Both the position numbers and the translations under genes were made by a program. A stretch of DNA of 13,034 nt from Candidatus Zixiibacteriota bacterium (GTDB taxonomy: Bacteria; Zixibacteria; MSB-5A5; GN15; JAAZOE01), in NCBI GenBank assembly GCA_028700875.1, contig JAQVRW010000041.1:1-13034 (forward strand), read 5' to 3'. Under the pieces are notes generated by a model. That model saw nothing but the letters and a program-made list of their open reading frames with translations, was not told the DNA's origin and ran no database searches. Below are positions 409 through 13,034 of this stretch, piece after piece. The first letter of the stretch is position 1; each line of letters opens with the position of its first letter.

Positions 409-556
409 GGGGCCGTAGGCCTCGTTCCCCCACCCGGGGGTGTGGAAGGGTGGCCGAGAATGAGATCGGTCGCCAGAACGCGTCTATGAGGGTGCCCGGG
501 TACACCCGGCGATCAAGTTTAGCGGGGAATACTCATTTCCTGCAATAGGCAAGAGA

Positions 557-576
557 CCCCCGGTTTTAACCGGGGG
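557..576. terminator. Perfect 20-nt palindrome (cccccggttttaaccggggg) followed by a T-rich tract
   Basis: Seen directly in the sequence: a 9-bp GC-rich stem with a 2-nt loop, then ttttgtttt at about 598-606. It lies between the LAGLIDADG stop and the tnpB-like start. It could instead be a left-end subterminal hairpin of the IS element. Confidence 0.35.
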
Positions 577-663
577 AGGAATGCCGTCACCGATCCGTTC
601 AACAGGTTTTGTTTTAACGATATAACGATACCTTTAATATGAATTACATTCTCTATAAACATA

Positions 664-2112
664 ATGCGAGGGAGAGAGTATCGATCGGTCTCAAACTATC
701 TGCGGCCTAGCCAACGGCAGTTCTACCTGATCGATCAACTCGCATACTACTCAAAGAATCTGTACAACGTCGCGTTGTACAATGTTCGTCAGCACTACCT
801 TGAGTGGCAGGAACAAGCAACCTACATGACCGGGATTCGGCCGGATATCACAAACAACGTCGATATCCTGGTGGGATCCTACCTTCCTTACTCCCGGAAA
901 ACCTCGTATCCGTACAAAGATATCTGCAACTATGCCCGGACAAAATCGAACGAGAATTATCCGCTCCTCCACAGTGATGTTGCTCAACAAACCATCAAGA
1001 GTGTGGAAGAGGGGTACAAATCGTATTTCGGATTGTTGTGGTCGTACCGGCGGGGAAAATTGAAAGATTGTCCTCGGCCGCCCCACTATCTGGAGAAAGA
1101 CGGTCGGTACAAACTGGCGTTTCCGGCAATTCGACTCAGGTTTCGAAAGGGATATGTCACGCTCGGGGTCTCCCGTCAGTTCAAACGTCGATACGGCGTG
1201 GGAAAGAACGAACTCTCGTTCAAGATCCCGCCCCAGATCCGACCTGACCAGATCCGGGAAGTCACGATCCTGCCGATCAACAACGGACTAACCTACAAAA
1301 TCGAGTTCTCCTACACGATCAAATCCACTCCTGCCCCGGTCATCCAGGACCGGTACCTTGCAATCGATCTCGGGCTCACGAATTTTGCCACGTGCGTGGA
1401 ATCCGCTACCGGGACGGCCTTCATCCTCGACGGCTCGTATCTCAAATCAATCAACCGGTGGTACAACAAAGAGACCGCACGATTGCAGGCGATCAAAGCC
1501 AAACAACATCTGCCCCAGAACCTCACGCGCCGTCAGGCGCGGTTGCTCAACCGTCGCAACAACACGATCAACGAAGCCATGAACCGGTTTGCTGTCTACA
1601 TCGTGCAGTATGCGATCGACCGGCAGATCGGGACGATCATCCTGCCGACGTGGGACGGGATCAAACACAAGATCAAACTGGGACCGAAAACCAACCAGAA
1701 CTTTGTCCAGATCCCCTATGCGAAATTCCGGTTCAAACTGAATGGGCTTTGCCAGCAGTTCGGGATCGTCTTCGACGATACCCACGATGAACGCTATACC
1801 TCGCAGGTGGACGCGCTTGCGCGCGACCCCCTCAAGAAACCGGCGTATGGCAGAACCCGGCGGATCCAGAGAGGATTGTATCAGAGTTCGGTTGGTACGT
1901 TGATCAATGCGGACGTGAACGGGGCGTTGAACCATTTGAGGAACGTAGCCGGTGATTCCATCATCGCATGGATAATCGGTAGCGGCCGCGTCAACCGGCC
2001 GGTACGAATAAGGTTTGCCTTCGAGGGCCAAGCCCCCGAACGGATCACCAAACAGCCTTCGTACGCATTAAATCGTGATGGTGGCAACACCGTCACAAGC
2101 CACCGGTTCTAA
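664..2112 (+). CDS. tnpB: IS200/IS605-family (IS1341-type) TnpB-like protein with apparently degenerate RuvC-II and zinc-finger motifs
   Basis: The N-terminus (YRSVSNYLRPSQRQ...NLYNVALYNVRQ) fits the TnpB OrfB_IS605 N-domain pattern. AIDLGLTNFAT is RuvC-I, YTSQ is the motif that precedes the zinc finger, and INADVNGALN is RuvC-III. Where a canonical TnpB has I/V-x-L-E-D-L the sequence reads IILPTWDGI (no Glu), and no Cys pairs follow YTSQ (YTSQVDALARDPL). No tnpA gene is adjacent. Confidence 0.85.
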   Translation: MRGREYRSVSNYLRPSQRQFYLIDQLAYYSKNLYNVALYNVRQHYLEWQEQATYMTGIRPDITNNVDILVGSYLPYSRKTSYPYKDICNYARTKSNENYPLLHSDVAQQTIKSVEEGYKSYFGLLWSYRRGKLKDCPRPPHYLEKDGRYKLAFPAIRLRFRKGYVTLGVSRQFKRRYGVGKNELSFKIPPQIRPDQIREVTILPINNGLTYKIEFSYTIKSTPAPVIQDRYLAIDLGLTNFATCVESATGTAFILDGSYLKSINRWYNKETARLQAIKAKQHLPQNLTRRQARLLNRRNNTINEAMNRFAVYIVQYAIDRQIGTIILPTWDGIKHKIKLGPKTNQNFVQIPYAKFRFKLNGLCQQFGIVFDDTHDERYTSQVDALARDPLKKPAYGRTRRIQRGLYQSSVGTLINADVNGALNHLRNVAGDSIIAWIIGSGRVNRPVRIRFAFEGQAPERITKQPSYALNRDGGNTVTSHRF

Positions 2113-2170
2113 CCGGTGGTAGTTGACTTCCCGCAACTCTTCGTCACATGGCGATTCGCCCCACCGGCTG

Positions 2171-2304: not shown

Positions 2305-2443
2305 TTGTCAGACGGATGGCTGCCAGAAGGCCGACAACGGGACGACAATCTAATAATTCGTCCATTCCACCATGCCGGTGGCGGAATCAAAAGCGAAACG
2401 GTTAATTTGGTGGAAACAAAACCGTTCAGTGCAGCCACCCCGC

Positions 2444-2608
2444 GGATCCGTGGTGGTGTCGTGGCTTCACGGCCGCATCCGGGTGGATCCGTGGTGGCGT
2501 CATGGACGGGTGGTGGTATCGCCGGTGAACGCATGGCGGTGTCATGGACCGGTGGTGGAACCCTCGTGAACCTATGACAGAATCGTGGCTGGATGGTGGC
2601 AACCATGG
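2444..2608. repeat. Degenerate tandem array with ~41-bp period (GGATCCGTGGTGG / GTCATGGAC / GTGAAC motifs), about 4 units
   Basis: ggatccgtggtgg occurs at 2444 and 2485. gtcatgga occurs at 2500 and 2541. gtgaac occurs at 2525 and 2566. GGTGGTGG-like runs sit near 2452, 2493, 2511, 2553 and 2594. The array runs into the start of the MerR-like ORF. Confidence 0.5.
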
Positions 2609-3222
2609 AATATTCACTCACTGTTGATGATATTGTACAGCAAACCGGGTTCACCACGTCGACGGTTCGGCGGTACCTGCGTGATTTCACGGACTTTATC
2701 CCGTCGAACCCGATCAACCGGAAGCAGGTCCTGTATGGCGAAGAGACCGTGGCGATCGTGACCCGGATCAGTGATCTCTACGGATCCGGGAAGTATACCC
2801 CGGACATCAGGGAGATCTTGAAGTATGAGGTACCGATGACGGTTGAGGTTCACGAGGTTGTGGAACTCCCGAAATCGGACGAAATCGCGGTTGCGATTCG
2901 TCCCGACGTCCAGGATCAGATCGACCGGGTCGTGGCGTTGGCCGAATCCCTGGTAGAAAAAATGCAGCAGATCGACGATCATGAAACCGAGATCACGGCG
3001 ATGCGGCAGACCCTGGTCGATACCCGGGCGCAGGTCACGGGGTGTATCGACCAGATGACGGCCGTGGAACGGGCGATGCGTGATGAGTCGCGAGTGGACG
3101 CACTCACCCGCGAGATCCAGCAGCAGAATGCTACCATCGCCTCGCTCACCGACGAGATTGCGGCGTTTCGTCAGCAGCCGGTGACGTTCTGGGGCTGGGT
3201 ACGCCAGACGTTCAAATTTTAA
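2605..3222 (+). CDS. MerR-like HTH transcriptional regulator with a C-terminal coiled-coil
   Basis: The N-terminus LTVDDIVQQTGFTTSTVRRYLRDF matches the MerR-family HTH pattern (T-x-x-E-x-A-x-x-x-G-V-S-x-x-T-L-R-Y-Y). The C-terminal half is heptad-like (EITAMRQTLVD...IASLTDEIAAF). The start could be ATG 2593 or 2605. A T7 run follows the stop. Confidence 0.55.
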   Translation: MEYSLTVDDIVQQTGFTTSTVRRYLRDFTDFIPSNPINRKQVLYGEETVAIVTRISDLYGSGKYTPDIREILKYEVPMTVEVHEVVELPKSDEIAVAIRPDVQDQIDRVVALAESLVEKMQQIDDHETEITAMRQTLVDTRAQVTGCIDQMTAVERAMRDESRVDALTREIQQQNATIASLTDEIAAFRQQPVTFWGWVRQTFKF

Positions 3223-3223
3223 C

Positions 3224-3350
3224 TTTTTTTCCGACAATCGACATGGACCCGGCCCCGCCAATCCCCCATAAACCATATGATGCTATACGACATCGGGAGG
3301 GGTGGCGACTATCCCGCCGTGGCGGGATGAACATCACGTTCGAAAAAAAA
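3224..3350. terminator. Convergent terminator region: a T7 run after the MerR-like gene, a hairpin at 3311-3328, and a T8 run directly after the flotillin stop on the minus strand
   Basis: cttttttt at 3223-3230. atcccgcc-gt-ggcgggat hairpin at 3311-3328. cgaaaaaaaa at 3341-3350 reads as T8 on the minus strand, adjacent to the flotillin stop (3351-3353). Archaeal terminators are typically oligo-T. Confidence 0.4.
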
Positions 3351-4895
3351 TTAGAAGAAGTCGTCGGCCCGCTTCAACGTTTTCGGCGGCACATCCTTCT
3401 TCTCGTTGAGTGAACCGAGGAACTGTTCCGCGACACTCGCAAGCGCATCAAGCGACGTTTTTGGCGGCACAGTGACAGTGTCCATTACCGATTCTGGAGT
3501 CGCCGGGGCATCGTTGGACGGGTTCTCAGTCTCACCATTCGACCGATCAACCACGGACTTGATCAGACCGGCGATCTTCTCGGTGGCGTCCGGCTCGGCC
3601 GCGTTTAAGGCTTTCAGCATCCCGCCGATCCCCAGTCCGCCTTTGACCGTGAAGAGGTCGAGGAAGTTCTCCGGGTTACCGCTCCCGATATACTGAACAT
3701 CTGCTGCCTTGAGGGCTTCTGCGAGCGCCAGACCGACCCGTTCATCTTTCTCAATCACCCGGATTGCCTGTGCCTTGGTCTGCTGATACTCCTGGGCTTT
3801 GGCCTTCTCCATCATACCGTCGGCTTCGGCAAACAGCTGGGCCTTGGTGCCTTCTGCAGCGGCGATCAGTTTTGCCCTGTTCCCGGTTGCTTCCGCCACC
3901 ATGGTGATCTCGGTGACGTTGGCTTTCGCCTTGCCTTCGAACTCGATCTTCCTGGCCTCTCCTTCACCTTCGAGCGAGAGCCGTTCCCGGTTGCCGGTAG
4001 CGGTCTCGACCATCGCCCGCTTCTCGCCTTCGGCCCGCCGTACCGCGGCATCCGCATCGATCTCGGCTTTCTGCACGGCGTTGATCCGGTACACGTTCAT
4101 CTTCTCTTCGGCTGCCGCCTTCTCGCGCTTGGCAACCTCCATGATCCGGTCCTGTTCTCGCATATCGACATGCTCTTTCGCCTCGATTTTCCGCTTCTCT
4201 GCGATCTCGAACGTATCGGCTTCGACCAGTTCGGCGTCCCGGTTCTTGTTGGCCACCTCTTGACGGGAGTTCGAGTTGATCTGCGCTTCCATCTTCGCCG
4301 AGATGTCGTGGATGACCGTGGAGCTGCCGTCAACCGGGTCCCGGATTGAGACGATCGCAACGTTCGTGAGTTCGACACCCCATTTTGTGAAGTCGGGCGC
4401 AAGTTCGCGGGTCAGGTCGGCCGAGATCTCTTCCCGCTTGGCGATAACATCTTCGATCGAGTAGTTTGCCGTCGTTTTCCGGATTGCCGAGATGACAATC
4501 TCTTTCATACCGTCCTGGAAATCCGAGATCTTGCGGCCGGGGAACCGGCGGGCGGCTTCCGCAATATCGATGATCTTGCAGTAGACCGTGACATCAATGA
4601 CGAACCGGGGATTGCCTTTTGCGAACGTTTCGTAATCTTTGACGACAATACTGATGATGCTCAGCGGCATTCGCTGCACGACCACACCGAGGATCGGGAC
4701 CCAGGAAGGGAACGCGTAGTAGATCGGGGTCATCTTCTGGCCTTCGGGCACCACCGACGCGTCACCCGTATAGATACGGGTCCCGTGTTTCCCGACCACT
4801 ACGTCGGCATAGTTCGCGTCCACAACCCGGCGTAGGAGGATCAGCCAGATCGCCAGTCCTACCAGTGCAATAATTCCAAGTAATGTTACCAGCAT
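3351..4895 (-). CDS. Flotillin-like SPFH/band-7 domain membrane protein
   Basis: N-terminal TM anchor MLVTLLGIIALVGLAIWLILL. SPFH-like core. A long Glu/Ala/Lys-rich coiled-coil region. The flotillin C-terminal signature YIGSGNPENFLDLF. An SD-like AAGGTGA sits 6 nt upstream of the ATG. Confidence 0.85.
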   Translation of the reverse strand: MLVTLLGIIALVGLAIWLILLRRVVDANYADVVVGKHGTRIYTGDASVVPEGQKMTPIYYAFPSWVPILGVVVQRMPLSIISIVVKDYETFAKGNPRFVIDVTVYCKIIDIAEAARRFPGRKISDFQDGMKEIVISAIRKTTANYSIEDVIAKREEISADLTRELAPDFTKWGVELTNVAIVSIRDPVDGSSTVIHDISAKMEAQINSNSRQEVANKNRDAELVEADTFEIAEKRKIEAKEHVDMREQDRIMEVAKREKAAAEEKMNVYRINAVQKAEIDADAAVRRAEGEKRAMVETATGNRERLSLEGEGEARKIEFEGKAKANVTEITMVAEATGNRAKLIAAAEGTKAQLFAEADGMMEKAKAQEYQQTKAQAIRVIEKDERVGLALAEALKAADVQYIGSGNPENFLDLFTVKGGLGIGGMLKALNAAEPDATEKIAGLIKSVVDRSNGETENPSNDAPATPESVMDTVTVPPKTSLDALASVAEQFLGSLNEKKDVPPKTLKRADDFF

Positions 4896-4947
4896 ACAAT
4901 CACCTTAATTCGACATGAGGCCCCCTGTGTTAGCGGGGGTAGTTGAC

Positions 4948-5193
4948 CTACAGATATTCTTCGCTTGTCAGTTCCGTCCGGTTATCGCTGATCCGGTTCG
5001 ACAGGTTATCGTTCCGCACCAGTTTGCTCCGGCGCTTCGTGTCATCAACCGAGATCAGCACCGCATCTTTCCCGCCGTGCACGACGTTCTCGTAAAACTT
5101 GATGAGGTCGTCCGGTGACTTGAAGACGATCTTCGTACACTCGTCGTCCATCGACACGATCTCGAATTTCAGAATGTCCGACATAAAACCCAC
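4948..5193 (-). CDS. Hypothetical small acidic protein (81 aa), likely co-transcribed with the flotillin gene
   Basis: The ORF has a protein-like composition. It lies about 50 nt upstream of the flotillin gene on the same strand. TTTATAT and an AGGAG-like element lie upstream of its ATG. The intergenic region holds a hairpin plus the flotillin SD. Confidence 0.45.
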   Translation of the reverse strand: MGFMSDILKFEIVSMDDECTKIVFKSPDDLIKFYENVVHGGKDAVLISVDDTKRRSKLVRNDNLSNRISDNRTELTSEEYL

Positions 5194-5230
5194 TCCTAAA
5201 TGAGCATATTAACGTGGAACGCACCACCAT

Positions 5231-5354
5231 ATAAACGTAATGGAGTTTCTCCATGAAATCTGCATAGTTGCATGGTATTACAACGAGTATGACACCTGCA
5301 TTGTACGCCTCCGTCAGATGTGCGCGGGAAAAAGAAGATTATGCGGGAAGAATG
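5231..5354. repeat. Copy 1 of a ~125-bp diverged direct repeat containing the palindrome ATGGAGTTTCTCCAT
   Basis: About 80% identical to 6962-7081. Conserved blocks are ataaaYgtaatggagtttctccaYgaaatctgcata, gcattgtacgcc and tgcgcgggaaaaaga. The palindrome is at 5240-5254. Confidence 0.6.
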
Positions 5355-5818
5355 TCGATGACCTCACCGATTTCGTTTAACTTTACAGTATACGTCCCGT
5401 TGATCTCAAGGTTCATCCAGATGACACGGTCATAATAGTATGCGTATTCGTTTCGAAAGTTATCTGTTTCGAAATGGATCCGGTATACACACCCCGATGT
5501 GTCCATAATGTAGTACACGGTGCGAGATCCTCCCCCGGATGTGAATTTGATAGCGGCAATGCATTCATGCATTTTCGCGACCGTAATCGTCTTTACCGTC
5601 GTTGGGTCCGATATATCGGTCTCAAACGCGCCCATTCCGTCCGTCACCATTGTATCCTGCACGGTATCGGGATGATAGACAATGCAGCAGAGAACCATTA
5701 TAATGACAATACTTAGTATTCCCAAATAGTACGACTGATCTGATACCATACCATTACTGGTGATGCAAAAAATGATAAAGGTTATGACAAAAAAAAGATG
5801 ACGGGTGGTGAGGATCAT
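5339..5818 (-). CDS. Hypothetical membrane protein (159 aa): two N-terminal TM helices plus a ~110-aa C-terminal domain
   Basis: Hydrophobic stretches LFFVITFIIFCI and LGILSIVIIMVLCCIV. Its start overlaps the stop of the upstream 339-aa ORF (ATGA). Its GC is about 43%, against roughly 58% for the surrounding genes. Confidence 0.6.
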   Translation of the reverse strand: MILTTRHLFFVITFIIFCITSNGMVSDQSYYLGILSIVIIMVLCCIVYHPDTVQDTMVTDGMGAFETDISDPTTVKTITVAKMHECIAAIKFTSGGGSRTVYYIMDTSGCVYRIHFETDNFRNEYAYYYDRVIWMNLEINGTYTVKLNEIGEVIDILPA

Positions 5819-6834
5819 TCGGTCCGGAAGTCGATGATCGTCCGATCCTGCTCCGTCAACGGCATTTCATCCCGGTACGTCGATTCTGTGTCGACATTGT
5901 CAGACGCGGCAAACGTGTAGAAAATGCGGTCAGTTACCGACTTGAACAGTGTGTTGATGGCGATTTGATGACAGGGAGGGAGATTGTGAGTGGCGTCAAT
6001 GCCAAGCCGATACGTCCAGCCGTTACAGAGATCAAGGATGATCGGAGCAATCTCGTTGATGATCTCTCCCACCCCACGTATCGGCACACGGGTGCGGAAC
6101 GTCTGATCAACTGTCTTGGTCCAGAGGTAAGTTGCAGCTCGGTTGGCAGCATCACTGATATCATTGAGGAACGGGAATTCGGCGTCGCCCGTCCCAGTAA
6201 TCGGGGAGAATGCGGCGAATTCCGGATACTGACGGAACAATCGTTCCGCGGTGTGCAGTTCGGTCTCGGCGTCGAACCCATCGATGATATTACGGCTTCG
6301 TAACGCGAGCACGGCGTCAATCATGTCGGCGACCATCAGATATTCGAGGTGCTGAACGAACTGCAATGCTGACTTGTGGCAGACGTTTGGTTTCGATATA
6401 TCTGCAAGCGTTTTTGCGAAGATTGGTTTCATGTTGAAATATGTATTGATGCACGTTGGTGTGAAAATGACCGGATGGTGAACGATATCGTAAGCCTGGA
6501 TCTGTGCATGCCAGTCGTTTGCCTGCATCAATCTGACGCGATCCCATTTATCTGCGAGCAGGTAAAATGATCGCGGTTCGGCCAGTGTCTGGAATGCCAT
6601 CGCGATACGTCGTTGGTCGTCGACGTGGATTCCGGCTGGGTTTAGTCGAGTAATGGGAAACTGCATGAGGTATAGCAGAGCATCCTCAGAATAATCTATC
6701 ATGCAACCATCGGGTTGAGATAGTATATGGGTCAGCGTCACGTCGGCTTCGTACAGCGAGTAGCCCGTCTCCTGGTCAGGAGTAACACGAACCGTGACCT
6801 TGGTGACATCGTCCAATAGCCTTTTGCGTTTCAT
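5815..6834 (-). CDS. Hypothetical protein (339 aa), unknown function, first gene of the low-GC two-gene cassette
   Basis: A long ORF with protein-like composition and no motif I can recognise by eye. It is translationally coupled (4-nt overlap) to the 159-aa TM protein. Its GC is low for this window. Confidence 0.65.
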   Translation of the reverse strand: MKRKRLLDDVTKVTVRVTPDQETGYSLYEADVTLTHILSQPDGCMIDYSEDALLYLMQFPITRLNPAGIHVDDQRRIAMAFQTLAEPRSFYLLADKWDRVRLMQANDWHAQIQAYDIVHHPVIFTPTCINTYFNMKPIFAKTLADISKPNVCHKSALQFVQHLEYLMVADMIDAVLALRSRNIIDGFDAETELHTAERLFRQYPEFAAFSPITGTGDAEFPFLNDISDAANRAATYLWTKTVDQTFRTRVPIRGVGEIINEIAPIILDLCNGWTYRLGIDATHNLPPCHQIAINTLFKSVTDRIFYTFAASDNVDTESTYRDEMPLTEQDRTIIDFRTE

Positions 6835-6961
6835 GGTCGGTTACCCTGTAATAAGGTGTGAATCAACATAAAGGTATGGGATCGTCGAACGAATGGGCCC
6901 TGCTATCATCTCTTCCTTTGTGAAAGGAGTCTTCCCGCTCCGCTCCTTCAACCTCGCAAAG

Positions 6962-7081
6962 ATAAATGTAATGGAGTTTCTCCACGAAATCTGCATAATT
7001 GAATGGTAATATAACGGGTGTGACAATCGCATTGTACGCCCCACCGGTCGTGCGCGGGAAAAAGACGATGTGGGGAGGATG
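6962..7081. repeat. Copy 2 of the ~125-bp direct repeat (palindrome variant ATGGAGTTTCTCCAC)
   Basis: Aligns with 5231-5354 in the same orientation. It lies between the rtcB stop and the promoter region of the 339-aa gene. Confidence 0.6.
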
Positions 7082-7105
7082 CCCCGGACCGGTCATCCGT
7101 GCGCG

Positions 7106-8407
7106 TCAGGTCGACGCTTTCAGGTTGTAGACCGGTCGGATCCGGTCAACGATCTCGACGCTCGGCGCAATTGCGTCGATGATGGTCTGGGCGTCTTTGT
7201 AGGCGCCCGGCGCCTCGTCGAGCGTCTCCCGTCCGACCGACGTCGTGTAAATCCCCTGCATCTGGTCCCGATACTCCTCCACGCTCAACGTCCGTTTCGC
7301 AACGCTCCGGCTCATAATTCGTCCCGCCCCGTGAGGAGCGGAACAGTTCCAGTCCACATTGCCTTTTCCCACGCCGATCAATGACCCGTCTCGCATGTTG
7401 AACGGAACGATGAGCCGGTCGTCCTGGTGGCTCCGGATCGCGCCCTTCCGGATGATCAGGTCATCGAAATCGATGAAGTTGTGCACCGACTCGATCCGGT
7501 CCACAACCATTGCATCCGGGATCGTCGCCAGGATCCGGGCAATCATGGTGTCCCGGTTCAGGGCGGCATACTGCTGGGCGAAGATCATCGCGTGGTAGTA
7601 GTCGTGCGCCTGTTGGCCTTCGAGATAGGCCAGATCTTTAGGGATTCCCAACCCGAGTTCGTCCCGCATCTTCTTGATCTCAGCCCCGATCCGGTTCCGT
7701 TCGCAGGTGGTCCGGATCGCATCCAACCGGTCCTGGTATTCGCGTTCCCGGTGTTTTCCCACCGTCTTGAGGGCGAGCCGTTGGTACGCCTCGGCAACCC
7801 GCAACCCGAAGTTGCGCGACCCGCTGTGGACGACCACCCATTTCTCACCCTGTTCACCTTCGGCGACCTCGATGAAATGGTTCCCGCCCCCGAGCGTGCC
7901 GACCGCCGCCCGGACCGCGTCCGGTTCCGCCCGCACGAAGGTGCACAATTTCTCGAACCACTCGTAGGTATACTTGACCGGTTCGATCGTGGTGTCATAC
8001 GTTGCGGCAAACCGGTCGCGGAACCGGTATCCGATCTCATTGACCAATTTCCAGTCGAACCCGTGTTTCAGGTTGACGACCGCGTGGCCATGCACGTTGA
8101 ACCCGACCGGTACCGCTTTACGAACGGATCGGTCGAGCGTCGCGTAATCGATATCGATATCGCCGATGTTGACCGCGGTGATCCCGCAGCCGACATCGAC
8201 CCCGATGGTGTTGGGGATCACTTTGTCGCCGAGCGGCATGGTGAACCCGATAACGCTCCCTTTCCCGGCATGCGTGTCGGGCATGATGGCAACCGGGTTG
8301 GTAAACGCCGGGTGGTTGACGAACGTGCGAATCTGCGCAATACACTCCTCCTCCACGTCGTCGATCATCACCCGGGCGGTCGTATATTTTCCGGATATTT
8401 CGAACAT
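7106..8407 (-). CDS. rtcB: RtcB-family RNA ligase (3'-phosphate/5'-hydroxyl RNA-splicing ligase), short form (433 aa)
   Basis: Hallmark RtcB motifs MPDTHAGKG, GVDVGCG (metal-binding Cys) and GTLGGGNHFIE (Asn-His pair), with conserved His residues further on. An SD-like GGTGA lies upstream of the start. Confidence 0.9.
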   Translation of the reverse strand: MFEISGKYTTARVMIDDVEEECIAQIRTFVNHPAFTNPVAIMPDTHAGKGSVIGFTMPLGDKVIPNTIGVDVGCGITAVNIGDIDIDYATLDRSVRKAVPVGFNVHGHAVVNLKHGFDWKLVNEIGYRFRDRFAATYDTTIEPVKYTYEWFEKLCTFVRAEPDAVRAAVGTLGGGNHFIEVAEGEQGEKWVVVHSGSRNFGLRVAEAYQRLALKTVGKHREREYQDRLDAIRTTCERNRIGAEIKKMRDELGLGIPKDLAYLEGQQAHDYYHAMIFAQQYAALNRDTMIARILATIPDAMVVDRIESVHNFIDFDDLIIRKGAIRSHQDDRLIVPFNMRDGSLIGVGKGNVDWNCSAPHGAGRIMSRSVAKRTLSVEEYRDQMQGIYTTSVGRETLDEAPGAYKDAQTIIDAIAPSVEIVDRIRPVYNLKAST

Positions 8408-8627
8408 CTTCTCACCTTAATCTATGTGGTTGTACTACAGATGTGCATATAGGTATATAATGGTATGGTTTGGTCCAATCGAAGCGAGAACCGATCGGCG
8501 ATTACCCGGTCGCCCGGGTTCAGCCGATGCAACAATCGCTCGGGGCGGTCCCAAAGATTGATTATGATCAAACGACAACCAGCCTCTACGAATGTCGTTC
8601 AACCTGTATGACATCGGGAGTTGATCT
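8408..8627. promoter_or_regulatory. Divergent intergenic promoter region between rtcB and the rmlD-like gene
   Basis: AT-rich TATA-like elements (tatataat near 8450, ttaatctat) between divergently oriented genes. A GGGAG SD-like element precedes the 8628 ATG. Confidence 0.3.
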
Positions 8628-11798: not shown

Positions 11799-12530
11799 GG
11801 TTCCATTGGAACCCGCCACGAGGCCACACTTTCCTATCGATCCGGGATCCCGGGTAATCATCGAGGGTAGGGCGAATTGGCCACGGTAAATGCGCTGATC
11901 GGCCGGTGCCACTGGAGATTGCAAAATGGTCCAGTGGAAGTCTCTACAGATTACGACGGATAGGCGAAATGCCGACCGTTCCGGTGACATCTCCATCGAC
12001 GATCCCGGGGCTTCGTGAGCAGCAGATCCGCAATCGCGCTTCCGATGGAACTCATCTACGGGGTTTGAAGACGGGAATTACCGATTCATCCGGTTTTCAG
12101 AAGAATTCTACCGGAAGGGAGGGGGGAGGCCGCACCTTCCGAAGGAGGGTGAAATGGGAAGATACCCCGGGTATCTTCCAAATTTCTGATAAAATGGATT
12201 GTTGTTGAGGTATGCAACTCATGGTAGATAAAGGTGCCGGCCACCTCGGATCCGGGCACCGGGGATACCTTTTTTTCCGGGTTGGAGTGGAAGGTGCGGC
12301 CTCCCCCCTCCCTTCCGCTCGACGTTTCTTCTGCATCTACAATTTTTCCACTGGAACCACTCAGATGCAGTTTTTGGTCGTGGAATGGCAAATGCAGCCT
12401 CACCGTCTCTTCTCTTCGATGCCCATTCCTCGGTGGATCGTTCCATGGGAACTGACAAAACTCCATTCGAAACCCCTAAATAGGTTGTGGACAATCTCTG
12501 ATCGTGACCCCCGACTCCATCCGAGACGAA
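11799..12530. other. Candidate replication origin (oriC) upstream of orc1/cdc6, with ORB-like elements, inverted repeats and an AT-rich candidate unwinding element
   Basis: Mini-ORB-like cores: GTTCCATTGGAAC (11799-11811), CCACTGGAG...TCCAGTGGAAG (11908-11940), TTCCACTGGAA (12346-12356) and GTTCCATGGGAAC (12440-12452). The canonical archaeal mini-ORB is TCCAGTGGAAAC. The AT-rich segment 12180-12232 has about 33% GC. The region sits directly 5' of orc1/cdc6. Confidence 0.65.
12113..12316. repeat. Perfect 28-bp inverted repeat (ggaagggaggggggaggccgcaccttcc, at 12113-12140 and 12289-12316) with G-strings, flanking a 23-bp palindrome and the AT-rich stretch
   Basis: An exact reverse-complement match seen directly in the sequence. 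An inner palindrome ggaagataccccgggtatcttcc lies at 12157-12179. G-runs are reminiscent of the ORB G-string. Confidence 0.7.
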
Positions 12531-13034
12531 ATGCGGCACCGGATCGCGACCGCCCGGCAGGCGGCTTCCTCGATCTTCACCGATCCCAACGCACTCTCGA
12601 ACGAATACGTGCCGACCCACCTGATCGCCCGGGACGACCAGATCCTCGACGTCCTGGACATCTTCCTCCCGACGTTCCGCACCGGCGCCAAGATTCGGAA
12701 CCACATCATCCTCGGTCCCACCGGGTGCGGGAAGACCGTGGTCGCTCGCTACGTGATGCGATTCGTTAACGACGAGATTGCTACCGAAGCCGAGACGGCG
12801 CCGGCGGACAAACCGACGATCCGCCCAATCTACGTCCTGTGCCGGGACAACCGGACCAAAGTATCTATCTTGATCAGCATCATCACCGATCTCGACCCGA
12901 CGAGCAAATTTATCAATCGCGGGATCCGGTACGACGAATACGTGGCCGAGATGGTCCGGCTCATCAATCGGCTTAACGTCAGTCTGGTCATCCTCTTCGA
13001 CGAGATTGATCAGGCCAATCCTGCAGAAATGTCC
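12531..13034 (+). CDS. cdc6: Orc1/Cdc6 origin-recognition AAA+ ATPase (N-terminal 168 aa; continues beyond the window)
   Basis: EYVPTHLIARDDQILDVLDIFLP fits the Orc1/Cdc6 N-terminal pattern. Walker A is GPTGCGKT. Walker B is LVILFDEID. The frame is open to the window end, and an in-frame TAA lies at 12477-12479 upstream. ATG 12531 is preferred, with GTG 12504 a possible alternative. Confidence 0.9.
   Translation, partial: MRHRIATARQAASSIFTDPNALSNEYVPTHLIARDDQILDVLDIFLPTFRTGAKIRNHIILGPTGCGKTVVARYVMRFVNDEIATEAETAPADKPTIRPIYVLCRDNRTKVSILISIITDLDPTSKFINRGIRYDEYVAEMVRLINRLNVSLVILFDEIDQANPAEMS

What the first reader, a model, noticed from the sequence alone, without database searches (positions are those of the whole stretch)
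5231..5354. Duplicated ~125-bp module with a conserved palindrome placed just upstream of the TATA boxes of two adjacent operons
Copies at 5231-5354 and 6962-7081 share about 80% identity over 125 bp in the same orientation. On the minus (coding) strand, each copy ends in ...TTATGCAGATTTCRTGGAGAAACTCCATTACRTTTAT. That puts the palindrome ATGGAGAAACTCCAT (a 6-bp stem with an A to G change, giving a G-U wobble in copy 2) directly upstream of a TTTAT(A) TATA-like box. The palindrome thus sits upstream of the 339/159 cassette in one copy and of the 81-aa/flotillin operon in the other. This looks like a shared cis-regulatory module: a transcription-factor site plus promoter that co-regulates both units. 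Alternatively it is the footprint of the event that inserted the cassette, as diverged att-like direct repeats. A reading frame starting MEFLHEICI is conserved at the 5' end of both copies but terminates after 12 codons in copy 2, so coding is unlikely.
Basis: seen in the sequence. Interest (0 to 1): 0.55.

Follow-up and report, generated by a model that had tools for sequence, protein, structure and literature searches.

The report
Duplicated archaeal promoter spacer, gene-converted

Summary
Two direct copies, R1 (about 5229-5370) and R2 (about 6960-7100), are 83% identical over a 100-nt core. Three independent assemblies span both copies.

R1 is the ancestral spacer between a 159-aa-family gene and the 78-aa/flotillin operon. 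Diverged orthologues occur at the same place in two other lineages. Those lineages share:
- a T5 run just after the upstream stop codon;
- a 13-nt box, GGTTGTAATACCA, at a fixed 36-37 nt from the TATA;
- TTAC-N-TTTATAT;
- a TATGCTCA box where the transcription start is expected.

The palindrome ATGGAG-N3-CTCCAT is not conserved; only its right arm recurs, in one lineage. Palindromes of that size occur about 0.5 times per 100 nt in this window.

R2 is a secondary copy. It carries a decayed remnant of the 3' end of the 159-aa gene. It stops inside the TATA box. It abuts a 195-nt segment of unknown origin and a truncated relic of the gene that precedes the ATPase-like gene in relatives. It also has changes in the box and in the TATA. 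One strain (L022) carries an R2 with a 31-55-nt R1-type tract, which indicates gene conversion.

No integrase, further copies, Rfam match or conserved RNA fold were found. This is an ordinary promoter-region duplication on an archaeal replicon that is mislabelled as Zixibacteria.

The parts
5229..5333 (-). R1 core: the native terminator-to-TATA spacer upstream of the 78-aa/flotillin operon. On the minus strand it runs from the T5 run (5333-5329) to TTTATAT (5235-5229).
   Evidence: Orthologous spacers occur in L029/L011 (56% identical) and L030/L031 (63% identical) at the same position.
5334..5370 (-). R1 tail: the last ~10 codons, the stop codon (TAA at 5341-5339) and a few following bases of the 159-aa gene. 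This stretch is also part of the duplicated segment.
   Evidence: Its similarity to the sequence 5' of R2 is significant: 8/5000 shuffles for the window's R2 and 0/5000 for the L021 R2.
5273..5285 (-). Conserved 13-nt box: CGTTGTAATACCA in R1 and GGTTGTAATACCA in L029 and L030. It lies 36-37 nt upstream of the TATA and is the best candidate regulator site.
   Evidence: Twelve of its 13 positions (GTTGTAATACCA) are identical in three lineages, although the spacers are only 56-66% identical overall, and the spacing to the TATA is conserved.
5240..5254 (.). On the minus strand its right arm runs into the TTAC that precedes the TATA.
   Evidence: It is not conserved as a dyad in L029 or L030, and the background rate of such palindromes is 0.52 per 100 nt.
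5229..5240 (-). BRE/TATA-like element TTACGTTTATAT of the 78-aa/flotillin operon.
   Evidence: It is conserved in L029, L030 and L012 and fits the replicon-wide pattern [A/T]TAC-N-TTTAWAT.
5201..5208 (-). Conserved TATGCTCA box 25-27 nt downstream of the TATA centre. This is the inferred transcription start region. GGAGTG (5196-5191) and the ATG at 5184 follow it.
   Evidence: It is conserved in L029 and L030, and L012 has TATTTGCTCA. The start site itself is inferred and has not been mapped.
4948..5184 (-). 78-aa gene, listed as 81 aa from the GTG at 5193. It is the first gene of the operon with flotillin.
3351..4895 (-). SPFH/flotillin-family gene (514 aa).
   Evidence: Pfam Band_7, E = 9e-18. 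Homologues are listed.
6960..7063 (-). R2 core: the secondary copy. On the minus strand it runs from the T5 run (7063-7059) to TTTATCT (6966-6960). It contains the variant box GTTATATTACCA (7015-7004) and the 5-bp palindrome remnant (6971-6985).
7064..7100 (-). R2 tail: a decayed, non-coding remnant of the 3' end of a 159-aa-family gene. It starts within about 10 nt of the RtcB stop codon (7106).
6766..6959 (-). A ~195-nt segment of unknown origin between R2 and the relic of the 136-aa-family gene. It holds the proximal promoter-like CCATACCTTTATG (TTTATG at 6872-6867) and the ATG at 6834.
   Evidence: It has no homologue outside same-strain contigs. Homology to L018 starts only at about 6765. 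The promoter-like element resembles the TnpB upstream CGATACCTTTAATATGA.
6703..6765 (-). Relic of the last ~22 codons of the 136-aa gene that precedes the ATPase-like gene in relatives. Here it is fused in frame into the '339-aa' ORF.
   Evidence: GYSLYEADVT is identical to the C-terminus of the L018 upstream ORF.
5815..6834 (-). ORC/CDC6-like (PF24389) gene, a '339-aa' chimeric ORF. The homologous core starts at Met45 (6702).
5339..5818 (-). 159-aa gene with a hydrophobic N-terminal half (read from the sequence) and a conserved C-terminal domain. Its start overlaps the end of the 339-aa ORF by 4 nt.
7106..8407 (-). RtcB-family RNA ligase gene. The T5 run of R2 lies about 45 nt after its stop codon.

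Best explanation
R is the intergenic regulatory spacer of an archaeal gene cluster.

R1, at its native position between the 159-aa-family gene and the 78-aa/flotillin operon, contains these elements in order:
1. An oligo-T run (T5) a few bases after the upstream stop codon. This is the usual archaeal termination signal.
2. A variable G+C-rich stretch.
3. A conserved 13-nt box, GGTTGTAATACCA, at a fixed 36-37 nt from the TATA. This is a candidate regulator site about 70 nt upstream of the transcription start.
4. A TTAC-N-TTTATAT BRE/TATA element.
A conserved start-site box, a Shine-Dalgarno sequence and the ATG follow R1.

R2 is a paralogous partial copy of R1. It covers the last ~40 nt of the 159-aa gene through to the TATA, but not the start-site box or the 5' UTR. 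It arose by segmental, probably tandem, duplication followed by deletion in a rearranged region.

In relatives the ATPase-like gene sits inside a tightly packed operon behind a 136-aa gene. In the window that operon is truncated. R2, a 195-nt segment of unknown origin and a 22-codon relic of the 136-aa gene now precede the ATPase-like gene.

R2 therefore supplies RtcB with an oligo-T terminator. It may also supply an upstream promoter for the 339/159 unit, which has a proximal promoter-like element of its own.

The two copies still exchange sequence by gene conversion, which helps to keep them 83% alike.

Shown here: the duplication, the orthology of R1, the conserved blocks, the junction anatomy and the mosaic allele. 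Inferred: terminator and promoter activity, the start sites, regulator binding and the order of the rearrangement events.
For: Repeat and its extent.

Archaeal context:
- The sister contigs L021 and L022 are 99% identical to the window and carry Orc1/Cdc6 with Cdc6_lid and WHD domains.
- ORB-like GGTTCCAGTGGAAA motifs lie upstream of that gene.
- There are no sigma-70-like sites in R.
- [A/T]TAC-N-TTTAWAT occurs 30-54 nt upstream of the RtcB, 339-aa, 78-aa and both TnpB genes.

Orthology of R1:
- L029/L011 (78-aa protein 90% identical) and L030/L031 (67% identical) carry a homologous spacer between a 159-like gene end and the 78-aa gene.
- They share the T5 run, the box, its spacing to the TATA, TTAC-N-TTTATAT and TATGCTCA.

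Cluster conservation:
- L031 has the ATPase-like gene (56% identical), two 159-like genes (50%), R, the 78-aa homologue and then flotillin.
- L029 retains only a relic of the 159-like C-terminus before R.

R2 is derived:
- It carries a remnant of the 159-aa gene tail.
- It ends inside the TATA box.
- In L038, L039 and L018 the ATPase-like gene is directly preceded by the 136-aa gene, of which the window keeps only GYSLYEADVT... fused into the 339-aa ORF.
- R2 has substitutions in the box (GTTATATTACCA) and in the TATA (TTTATC).

Gene conversion:
- In L022, nine consecutive diagnostic sites of R2 are R1-type while both flanks are R2-type.
- L021 and L022 also differ from the window in a second small R1-like patch.
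Against: - There are no transcript data, so terminator, promoter and start sites are inferred from sequence only.
- Only three independent lineages support the conserved blocks. A fourth, L012, has a much shorter spacer without the box.
- The upstream region of the ATPase-like gene is known from only two other lineages, so an older R2 kept similar to R1 by conversion cannot be excluded.
- The mosaic R2 is seen in a single assembly (L022). It could in principle be an assembly chimera, but the copies share only 12-nt identical stretches at the two switch points, which is too short for usual assembler k-mers.
- The rest of the genome is not available. Two genome-contig scans found nothing relevant, so further R copies elsewhere cannot be ruled out.
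Confidence: 0.7

Rival explanations
1. The palindrome ATGGAG-N3-CTCCAT is the operator of a dimeric transcription factor. It overlaps the BRE, and with the TATA box it forms a shared module that co-regulates the 339/159 unit and the 78-aa/flotillin operon.
For: - The dyad abuts the TTAC-TATA element in both copies.
- The 30-nt stretch containing it is the best-preserved part of the repeat, with 29 of 30 positions identical.
- L012 has a different 5-bp palindrome at a similar place.
- A MerR-family regulator gene lies next to the operon at 2593-3222.
- The half-site AAACTCCATT also occurs upstream of orc1/cdc6.
Against: - The dyad is absent from the orthologous spacers of L029/L011 and L030/L031. 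Only the right arm, next to the TATA, is kept, and only in L030.
- Its outer pair is broken in R2.
- Six-bp palindromes occur at 0.52 per 100 nt in this window and in 16% of shuffles of R1.
- A 17-nt perfect run is what 83% identity over 100 nt gives by chance (my estimate).
- The R2 TATA is mutated, lies 128 nt from the ATG, and competes with a proximal promoter-like element.
- No other promoter on the 24-kb contig carries the dyad.
Confidence: 0.15
2. The repeats are att-like direct repeats left by site-specific or Campbell-type integration of a mobile 339/159 cassette, which could excise again by recombination between R1 and R2.
For: - Direct repeats flank a 1.6-kb unit of lower G+C, 0.47-0.52 against 0.55-0.61 in the flanks.
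- The two proteins are near-orphans.
- The region is rearranged relative to relatives.
- Recombination between the copies does occur.
- Several short contigs break inside R1 or R2.
Against: - No integrase or recombinase is called in the 24 kb around it.
- The ATPase-like and 159-like genes lie at the same place, upstream of R and the 78-aa gene, in a distant lineage. L029 keeps a relic of the 159-like gene there. The unit is therefore ancestral and not inserted.
- R2 contains a relic of the end of the 159-aa gene, which fits a duplication better than an attachment site.
- No cassette-less RtcB-R-78aa junction was found on any contig.
Confidence: 0.07
3. R encodes a small structured RNA or a cis-acting RNA element, such as a 3'-UTR element or a riboswitch-like leader.
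For: - A small hairpin can form.
- The element lies between genes and is conserved.
Against: - There are no Rfam matches, even at E <= 1.
- Folds of either strand are no better than shuffles, with z from -0.8 to +1.1.
- The consensus fold of four homologues is -2.3 kcal/mol.
- The element lies upstream of the inferred start and downstream of a T5 run.
Confidence: 0.03
4. R is a member of a dispersed repeat family, for example a MITE or an IS-end-derived element, that happens to lie twice in this window.
For: - Two TnpB-only IS elements lie nearby.
- The rest of the genome is unavailable.
Against: - There are only two copies in the 24-kb contigs.
- The metagenome scan for the 25-mer returned only fragments of this same locus plus one chance hit.
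- R has no terminal inverted repeats and no similarity to the IS ends.
- Orthologues are positionally fixed upstream of the 78-aa gene.
Confidence: 0.03

Closest known systems
Archaeal BRE/TATA promoters with upstream regulator sites (for example the Ptr2, Lrp-family or TrmB-type arrangements; named from my own knowledge, not tested here)
   Same: A TTTAWAT box lies 50 nt upstream of the ATG and is preceded by a short conserved element. A conserved box lies further upstream at fixed spacing. A conserved start region and a Shine-Dalgarno sequence follow.
   Different: No regulator, start site or binding has been shown. The box GGTTGTAATACCA matches no motif I can name.
Segmental or tandem duplication of an intergenic region with promoter capture, followed by concerted evolution through gene conversion
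   Same: Two direct paralogous copies 1.7 kb apart. One carries a relic of the neighbouring gene's end and lies at a breakpoint. A mosaic allele has a 31-55-nt converted tract.
   Different: Promoter use of the new copy is unproven. Its TATA and box are degraded in most strains, and the downstream gene has another candidate promoter.
Archaeal oligo-T transcription terminators (established knowledge: runs of five or more T suffice)
   Same: A T5 run lies 5-10 nt after the stop codon of the upstream gene in four lineages, and about 45 nt after the RtcB stop in R2.
   Different: Termination was not measured. A run of five T is the minimum signal.
att sites of integrative elements or integron-like cassettes
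   Same: Direct repeats flank a small gene unit, and the repeats recombine.
   Different: There is no integrase. The repeats are long (about 140 nt) and diverged. The unit is ancestral at this position in relatives.

Membership tests
Archaeal BRE/TATA promoter (R1) | A TATA box of the TTTAWA type at a plausible distance from the gene start. | tested here: met
   TTTATAT lies at 5235-5229, 51 nt upstream of the ATG at 5184. The same pattern lies 30-54 nt upstream of the RtcB, 339-aa and TnpB genes.
Archaeal BRE/TATA promoter (R1) | Conservation of the element in orthologous upstream regions. | tested here: met
   TTAC-N-TTTATAT is invariant in window R1, L029 and L030, and L012 has TACCTTTATAT.
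Archaeal BRE/TATA promoter (R1) | A transcription start about 25 nt downstream of the TATA. | not testable with these tools
   There are no transcript data. The conserved TATGCTCA at the expected place (5208-5201) is indirect support only.
Archaeal BRE/TATA promoter (R2) | An intact TATA box, positioned to serve the downstream gene. | tested here: inconclusive
   The box reads TTTATCT, with A changed to C at a position invariant in the R1 orthologues. It lies 128 nt from the ATG, and a proximal CCATACCTTTATG lies 32 nt from the ATG.
Palindromic transcription-factor operator | Dyad symmetry beyond chance. | tested here: not met
   The arms are 6 bp with a 3-nt spacer. The window holds 68 such palindromes (spacer 0-8 nt), and 16% of shuffles of R1 have one.
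Palindromic transcription-factor operator | Conservation of the dyad in orthologous promoters. | tested here: not met
   L029 has TTGCGGGGGTTCGG and L030 has TCGACAAAACTCCG at that place. Neither region contains a 5-bp dyad there.
Palindromic transcription-factor operator | Recurrence in other promoters (a regulon). | tested here: inconclusive
   Only the half-site AAACTCCATT recurs, upstream of orc1/cdc6 at 12458. The rest of the genome is not available.
att site / integrated mobile cassette | A recombinase or integrase associated with the element. | tested here: not met
   None is present among the genes called on the 24-kb contigs or in the Pfam scans.
att site / integrated mobile cassette | An empty site in relatives. 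| tested here: not met
   A distant relative (L031) has the ATPase-like and 159-like genes at the same place, and L029 has a relic of the 159-like gene.
Dispersed repeat / MITE | Many copies at unrelated sites, with terminal inverted repeats. | tested here: not met
   There are two copies in 24 kb. The metagenome scan returned only this locus plus one chance hit. No terminal inverted repeats were found. The whole genome is not available.
Structured non-coding RNA | A fold better than shuffles, covariation, or an Rfam match. | tested here: not met
Gene-conversion (concerted evolution) pair | A mosaic allele with a contiguous tract of donor-type sites. | tested here: met
   In the L022 R2, nine consecutive diagnostic sites are R1-type and the flanks are R2-type. 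This rests on a single assembly.

The most novel reading that the evidence does not exclude
R could be a portable terminator-promoter module that also acts as a homology handle. Recombination between R copies on this archaeal replicon, which looks like a mobile element or lies next to a replication origin, would shuffle, duplicate or excise gene units such as the ATPase-like/membrane-protein pair. Each unit would then arrive with a ready-made promoter and a shared regulator box. That would be an integrase-free analogue of cassette exchange. It would tie an uncharacterised ATPase-like/159-aa/78-aa/flotillin cluster into one regulon.
Probability: 0.07. Interest if true: 0.5.

Novelty: new member of a known kind. 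Interest (0 to 1): 0.2.

Why it matters
The finding has limited reach. It is a clean, dated-by-anatomy example of promoter-region duplication and gene conversion in an uncultured archaeon. It replaces an attractive but unsupported palindrome-operator reading with a conserved box that can be tested.

Three practical points follow:
- It shows that an NCBI contig labelled Zixibacteria is archaeal.
- It defines a local promoter consensus for that replicon.
- It exposes a conserved, uncharacterised gene cluster (136-aa gene, ORC/CDC6-like protein, 159-aa family, 78-aa protein, flotillin) whose regulation could be studied through this spacer.

Tried and rejected
- Pattern scan of genome contigs: no hit.
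- Flotillin-based search for related loci on genome contigs: only an irrelevant bacterial SPFH hit. The source genome and its close relatives are therefore not among the species representatives.
- Metagenome scan: only same-strain fragments (L003, L004) and a chance match (L002).
- Viral-contig scan for box + spacer + TATA: six chance matches in AT-rich phages, with no protein homology to the window.
- Phage and plasmid BLAST of 3300-8500: only RtcB-level similarity to haloarchaeal viruses and plasmids and to bacterial phages.
- PADLOC, NCBIfam and PHROGs gave nothing for the 339-, 159- and 78-aa proteins.
- The PDB sequence search for the 339-aa protein was empty.
- The exhaustive representative search found only 8 weak or partial relatives of the 339-aa protein.
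- The literature search for ORC-CDC6-like / PF24389 gave one unrelated BREX paper.
- The AlphaFold model of the 78-aa protein had pLDDT 50.6, too poor for a fold search. It showed a beta-beta-alpha-beta-beta pattern with no obvious helix-turn-helix.
- I tested whether the 195-nt leader of the 339-aa gene derives from the left end of the neighbouring IS element. Only the promoter-like ATACCTTTA...TGA.T.ACA is shared.
- The sigma-70 promoter and intrinsic-terminator scan found nothing in R.
- Cluster look-ups gave no taxonomic label other than the MAG's 'Zixibacteria'.

Full report
**The observation**

From the T-run to TTTAT the copies are 83/100 identical with a single 1-nt gap. The 30-mer around the palindrome occurs only at these two places, against none in shuffles. 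The minus-strand ends, the palindrome with its A-to-G change in copy 2, and the 12-codon stop of the MEFLHEICI frame all read as described. Three independent assemblies (L001, L021, L022) span both copies in the same order, so the duplication is not an assembly artefact. The repeat is in fact longer. Similarity continues for about 40 nt into the 3' end of the 159-aa ORF, with a local score reached by 8 of 5000 shuffles, and by 0 of 5000 for the L021 allele of copy 2.

**Context and origin of the sequence**

The gene order on the minus strand is:
- RtcB-family ligase (8407-7106)
- R2
- a 339-aa ORC/CDC6-like protein, PF24389 (6834-5815)
- a 159-aa protein (5818-5339)
- R1
- a 78-aa protein (5184-4948)
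- an SPFH/flotillin protein (4895-3351)

The window is a whole NCBI MAG contig labelled candidate division Zixibacteria. Several results point to an archaeon instead:
- The 24-kb sister contigs, 99% identical, carry an Orc1/Cdc6 gene with Cdc6_lid and WHD domains.
- ORB-like GGTTCCAGTGGAAA motifs lie upstream of that gene.
- R contains no sigma-70-like promoter.
- A pattern [A/T]TAC-N-TTTAWAT recurs 30-54 nt upstream of the RtcB, 339-aa, 78-aa and both TnpB genes.

**R1 is the ancestral spacer of the 78-aa/flotillin operon**

Flotillin and 78-aa homologues led to related contigs. Two other lineages carry a homologous spacer between the end of a 159-like gene and the 78-aa gene: L029/L011, whose 78-aa protein is 90% identical, and L030/L031, at 67%. 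Overall identity to R1 is only 56% and 63%, yet four blocks are kept:
- a T5 run 5-10 nt after the upstream stop codon;
- the box GGTTGTAATACCA, with 36-37 nt between it and the TATA;
- TTAC-N-TTTATAT;
- TATGCTCA about 25 nt downstream of the TATA, followed by GGAG and the ATG.

This is the anatomy of an archaeal terminator, upstream element, BRE/TATA and start region. The activities themselves are inferred and have not been measured.

**The palindrome**

The dyad is not conserved at the corresponding place. L029 reads TTGCGGGGGTTCGG there and L030 reads TCGACAAAACTCCG. Only the right arm, next to the TATA, recurs, and only in L030. Perfect 6-bp-arm palindromes with a 0-8-nt spacer occur 68 times in the window, about 0.52 per 100 nt, and in 16% of shuffles of R1. 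With 83% identity, a perfect run of about 16-17 nt is expected by chance over 100 nt (my estimate). The good preservation around the dyad is therefore not evidence of constraint. The conserved box is the better candidate regulator site.

**The 339/159 unit is not a foreign cassette**

In L031 the order is ORC/CDC6-like gene (56% identical), two 159-like genes (50%), R, the 78-aa homologue and flotillin. L029 keeps only a relic of the 159-like C-terminus (GVVVDIVPSP*) before R. The unit is therefore ancestral at this place. No integrase is called on the 24-kb contigs.

**R2 is a derived copy at a rearrangement junction**

- R2 begins with a decayed remnant of the 3' end of the 159-aa gene, about 10 nt after the RtcB stop codon, and it ends inside the TATA box.
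- In L038, L039 and L018 the ATPase-like gene is immediately preceded by, and overlaps, a 136-aa gene within a tightly packed operon.
- In the window only the last ~22 codons of that gene survive. The sequence GYSLYEADVT is identical to L018, and the relic is fused in frame into the '339-aa' ORF. Homology starts at about 6765.
- The 195 nt between that point and R2 have no detectable relative. They contain a proximal promoter-like CCATACCTTTATG 32 nt upstream of the ATG.
- Close relatives also differ in gene order: theirs is 78-aa gene, flotillin, a 95-aa gene, then RtcB.

The simplest account is a segmental, probably tandem, duplication with one end in the 136-aa gene region and the other just past the TATA of R, followed by deletion. 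The sequence of events is inferred.

**Is R2 functional?**

In the window allele R2 has substitutions in both of the most conserved elements: GTTATATTACCA in place of the box, and TTTATC in place of the TATA. It lies 128 nt from the ATG. It retains the T5 run, which is now placed to terminate RtcB transcription. Its promoter function remains open. I put it near even odds, leaning against.

**Gene conversion**

In L022, nine consecutive diagnostic sites of R2 are R1-type while both flanks are R2-type. They span alignment columns 95-125, giving a tract of 31 to 55 nt that includes the box. L021 and L022 also differ from the window in a second small R1-like patch next to the T-run. The identical stretches at the switch points are only 12 nt, too short to mislead assemblers. 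The mosaic nevertheless rests on one assembly.

**Rejected readings**

- Structured RNA. There were no Rfam matches, even at E <= 1. Folds of either strand are no better than shuffles. The consensus fold of four homologues is -2.3 kcal/mol.
- Dispersed repeat. There are two copies in 24 kb, and the metagenome scan returned only this locus plus one chance hit.
- Viral or plasmid origin of R. The scans gave only chance hits.

**Verdict**

The palindrome-operator idea and the inserted-cassette idea are not supported. What is present is an ordinary duplicated terminator-to-promoter spacer at a rearrangement junction, still exchanging sequence with its parent copy. Interest is low. The side findings are the mislabelled archaeal replicon with a candidate origin and the conserved uncharacterised flotillin-linked cluster.

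Noticed in passing
window 11799-12460, with the orc1/cdc6 ATG at 12531 and the gene running off the window end: This looks like a candidate replication origin. Four ORB-like dyads (GGTTCCATTGGAACC, TCCAGTGGAAG, TTCCACTGGAACC = GGTTCCAGTGGAAA on the other strand, and GTTCCATGGGAAC) lie upstream of an Orc1/Cdc6 gene that has Cdc6_lid and WHD domains on the sister contigs. L021 appears to differ from the window by an indel or duplication of about 98 nt near 12263-12360.
   Followed up: partly
window 12107-12140 and 12289-12322: A 34-nt inverted repeat, 94% complementary and G-rich (GGAAGGGAGGGGGGAGGCCGCACCTTCC), with 148 nt between its arms, lies inside the candidate origin region.
   Followed up: no
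whole window (NCBI proteins MDD4050879-MDD4050893): The contig is deposited as a Zixibacteria MAG. Its content is archaeal: Orc1/Cdc6, ORB-like motifs, TATA-type promoters and an RtcB closest to haloarchaeal sequences. Mis-binning is likely.
   Followed up: partly
window 547-2127; L021 17341-18921: A TnpB-only IS200/605-type element (OrfB_IS605, 482 aa, 664-2112). A second copy, 90% identical, lies on the 24-kb contig. Just outside its right end is a 50-nt-arm inverted repeat (2171-2220 and 2255-2304) built from 9-nt TGATCGGGT units.
   Followed up: no
window 2425-2558: Three to four direct repeats of 41-42 nt lie immediately upstream of a MerR-family HTH and coiled-coil gene (2593-3222, plus strand), which is convergent with flotillin.
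   Followed up: no
window 5339-5818; L004, L021 and L022 equivalents: The 159-aa gene is intact in the window and in L001. In L004 it is broken by single-base changes in homopolymer runs (C5 to C4, A8 to A7), and in L021 and L022 it is called as only 111 aa. This could be pseudogenisation, phase variation or sequencing error.
   Followed up: partly
window 5815-6834; L018, L031, L038, L039: The '339-aa' ORF is chimeric. It joins a novel 22-codon start, a 22-codon relic of the upstream 136-aa gene, and the ORC/CDC6-like core that begins at Met45 in relatives. In the alignment I read no Walker A motif (GxxxxGK[ST]), and the Pfam match covers profile positions 77-281 only.
   Followed up: partly
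L031, L038, L030 and window 3351-6834: A gene cluster of unknown function is conserved across three lineages: several small genes, a 136-aa gene, the ORC/CDC6-like protein, 159-aa-family protein(s), the spacer R, the 78-aa protein and flotillin. None of its non-flotillin members has a Pfam, PADLOC or PHROG assignment beyond PF24389.
   Followed up: partly
window 12458-12467 (plus strand): The right arm and flank of the R palindrome, AAACTCCATT, occurs once more, next to an ORB-like dyad upstream of orc1/cdc6. L030's R has GACAAAACTCCGTT against GACAAAACTCCATT here. I estimate about 0.03 chance occurrences of an exact 10-mer in the window.
   Followed up: no
L006-L011 compared with window 3351-8407: In the closest other lineage (flotillin DNA 84-86% identical, RtcB 79%) the order is 78-aa gene (or a different upstream gene), flotillin, a 95-aa membrane protein and RtcB. 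RtcB therefore lies downstream of flotillin there, not upstream as in the window, so the region is rearranged between lineages.
   Followed up: partly
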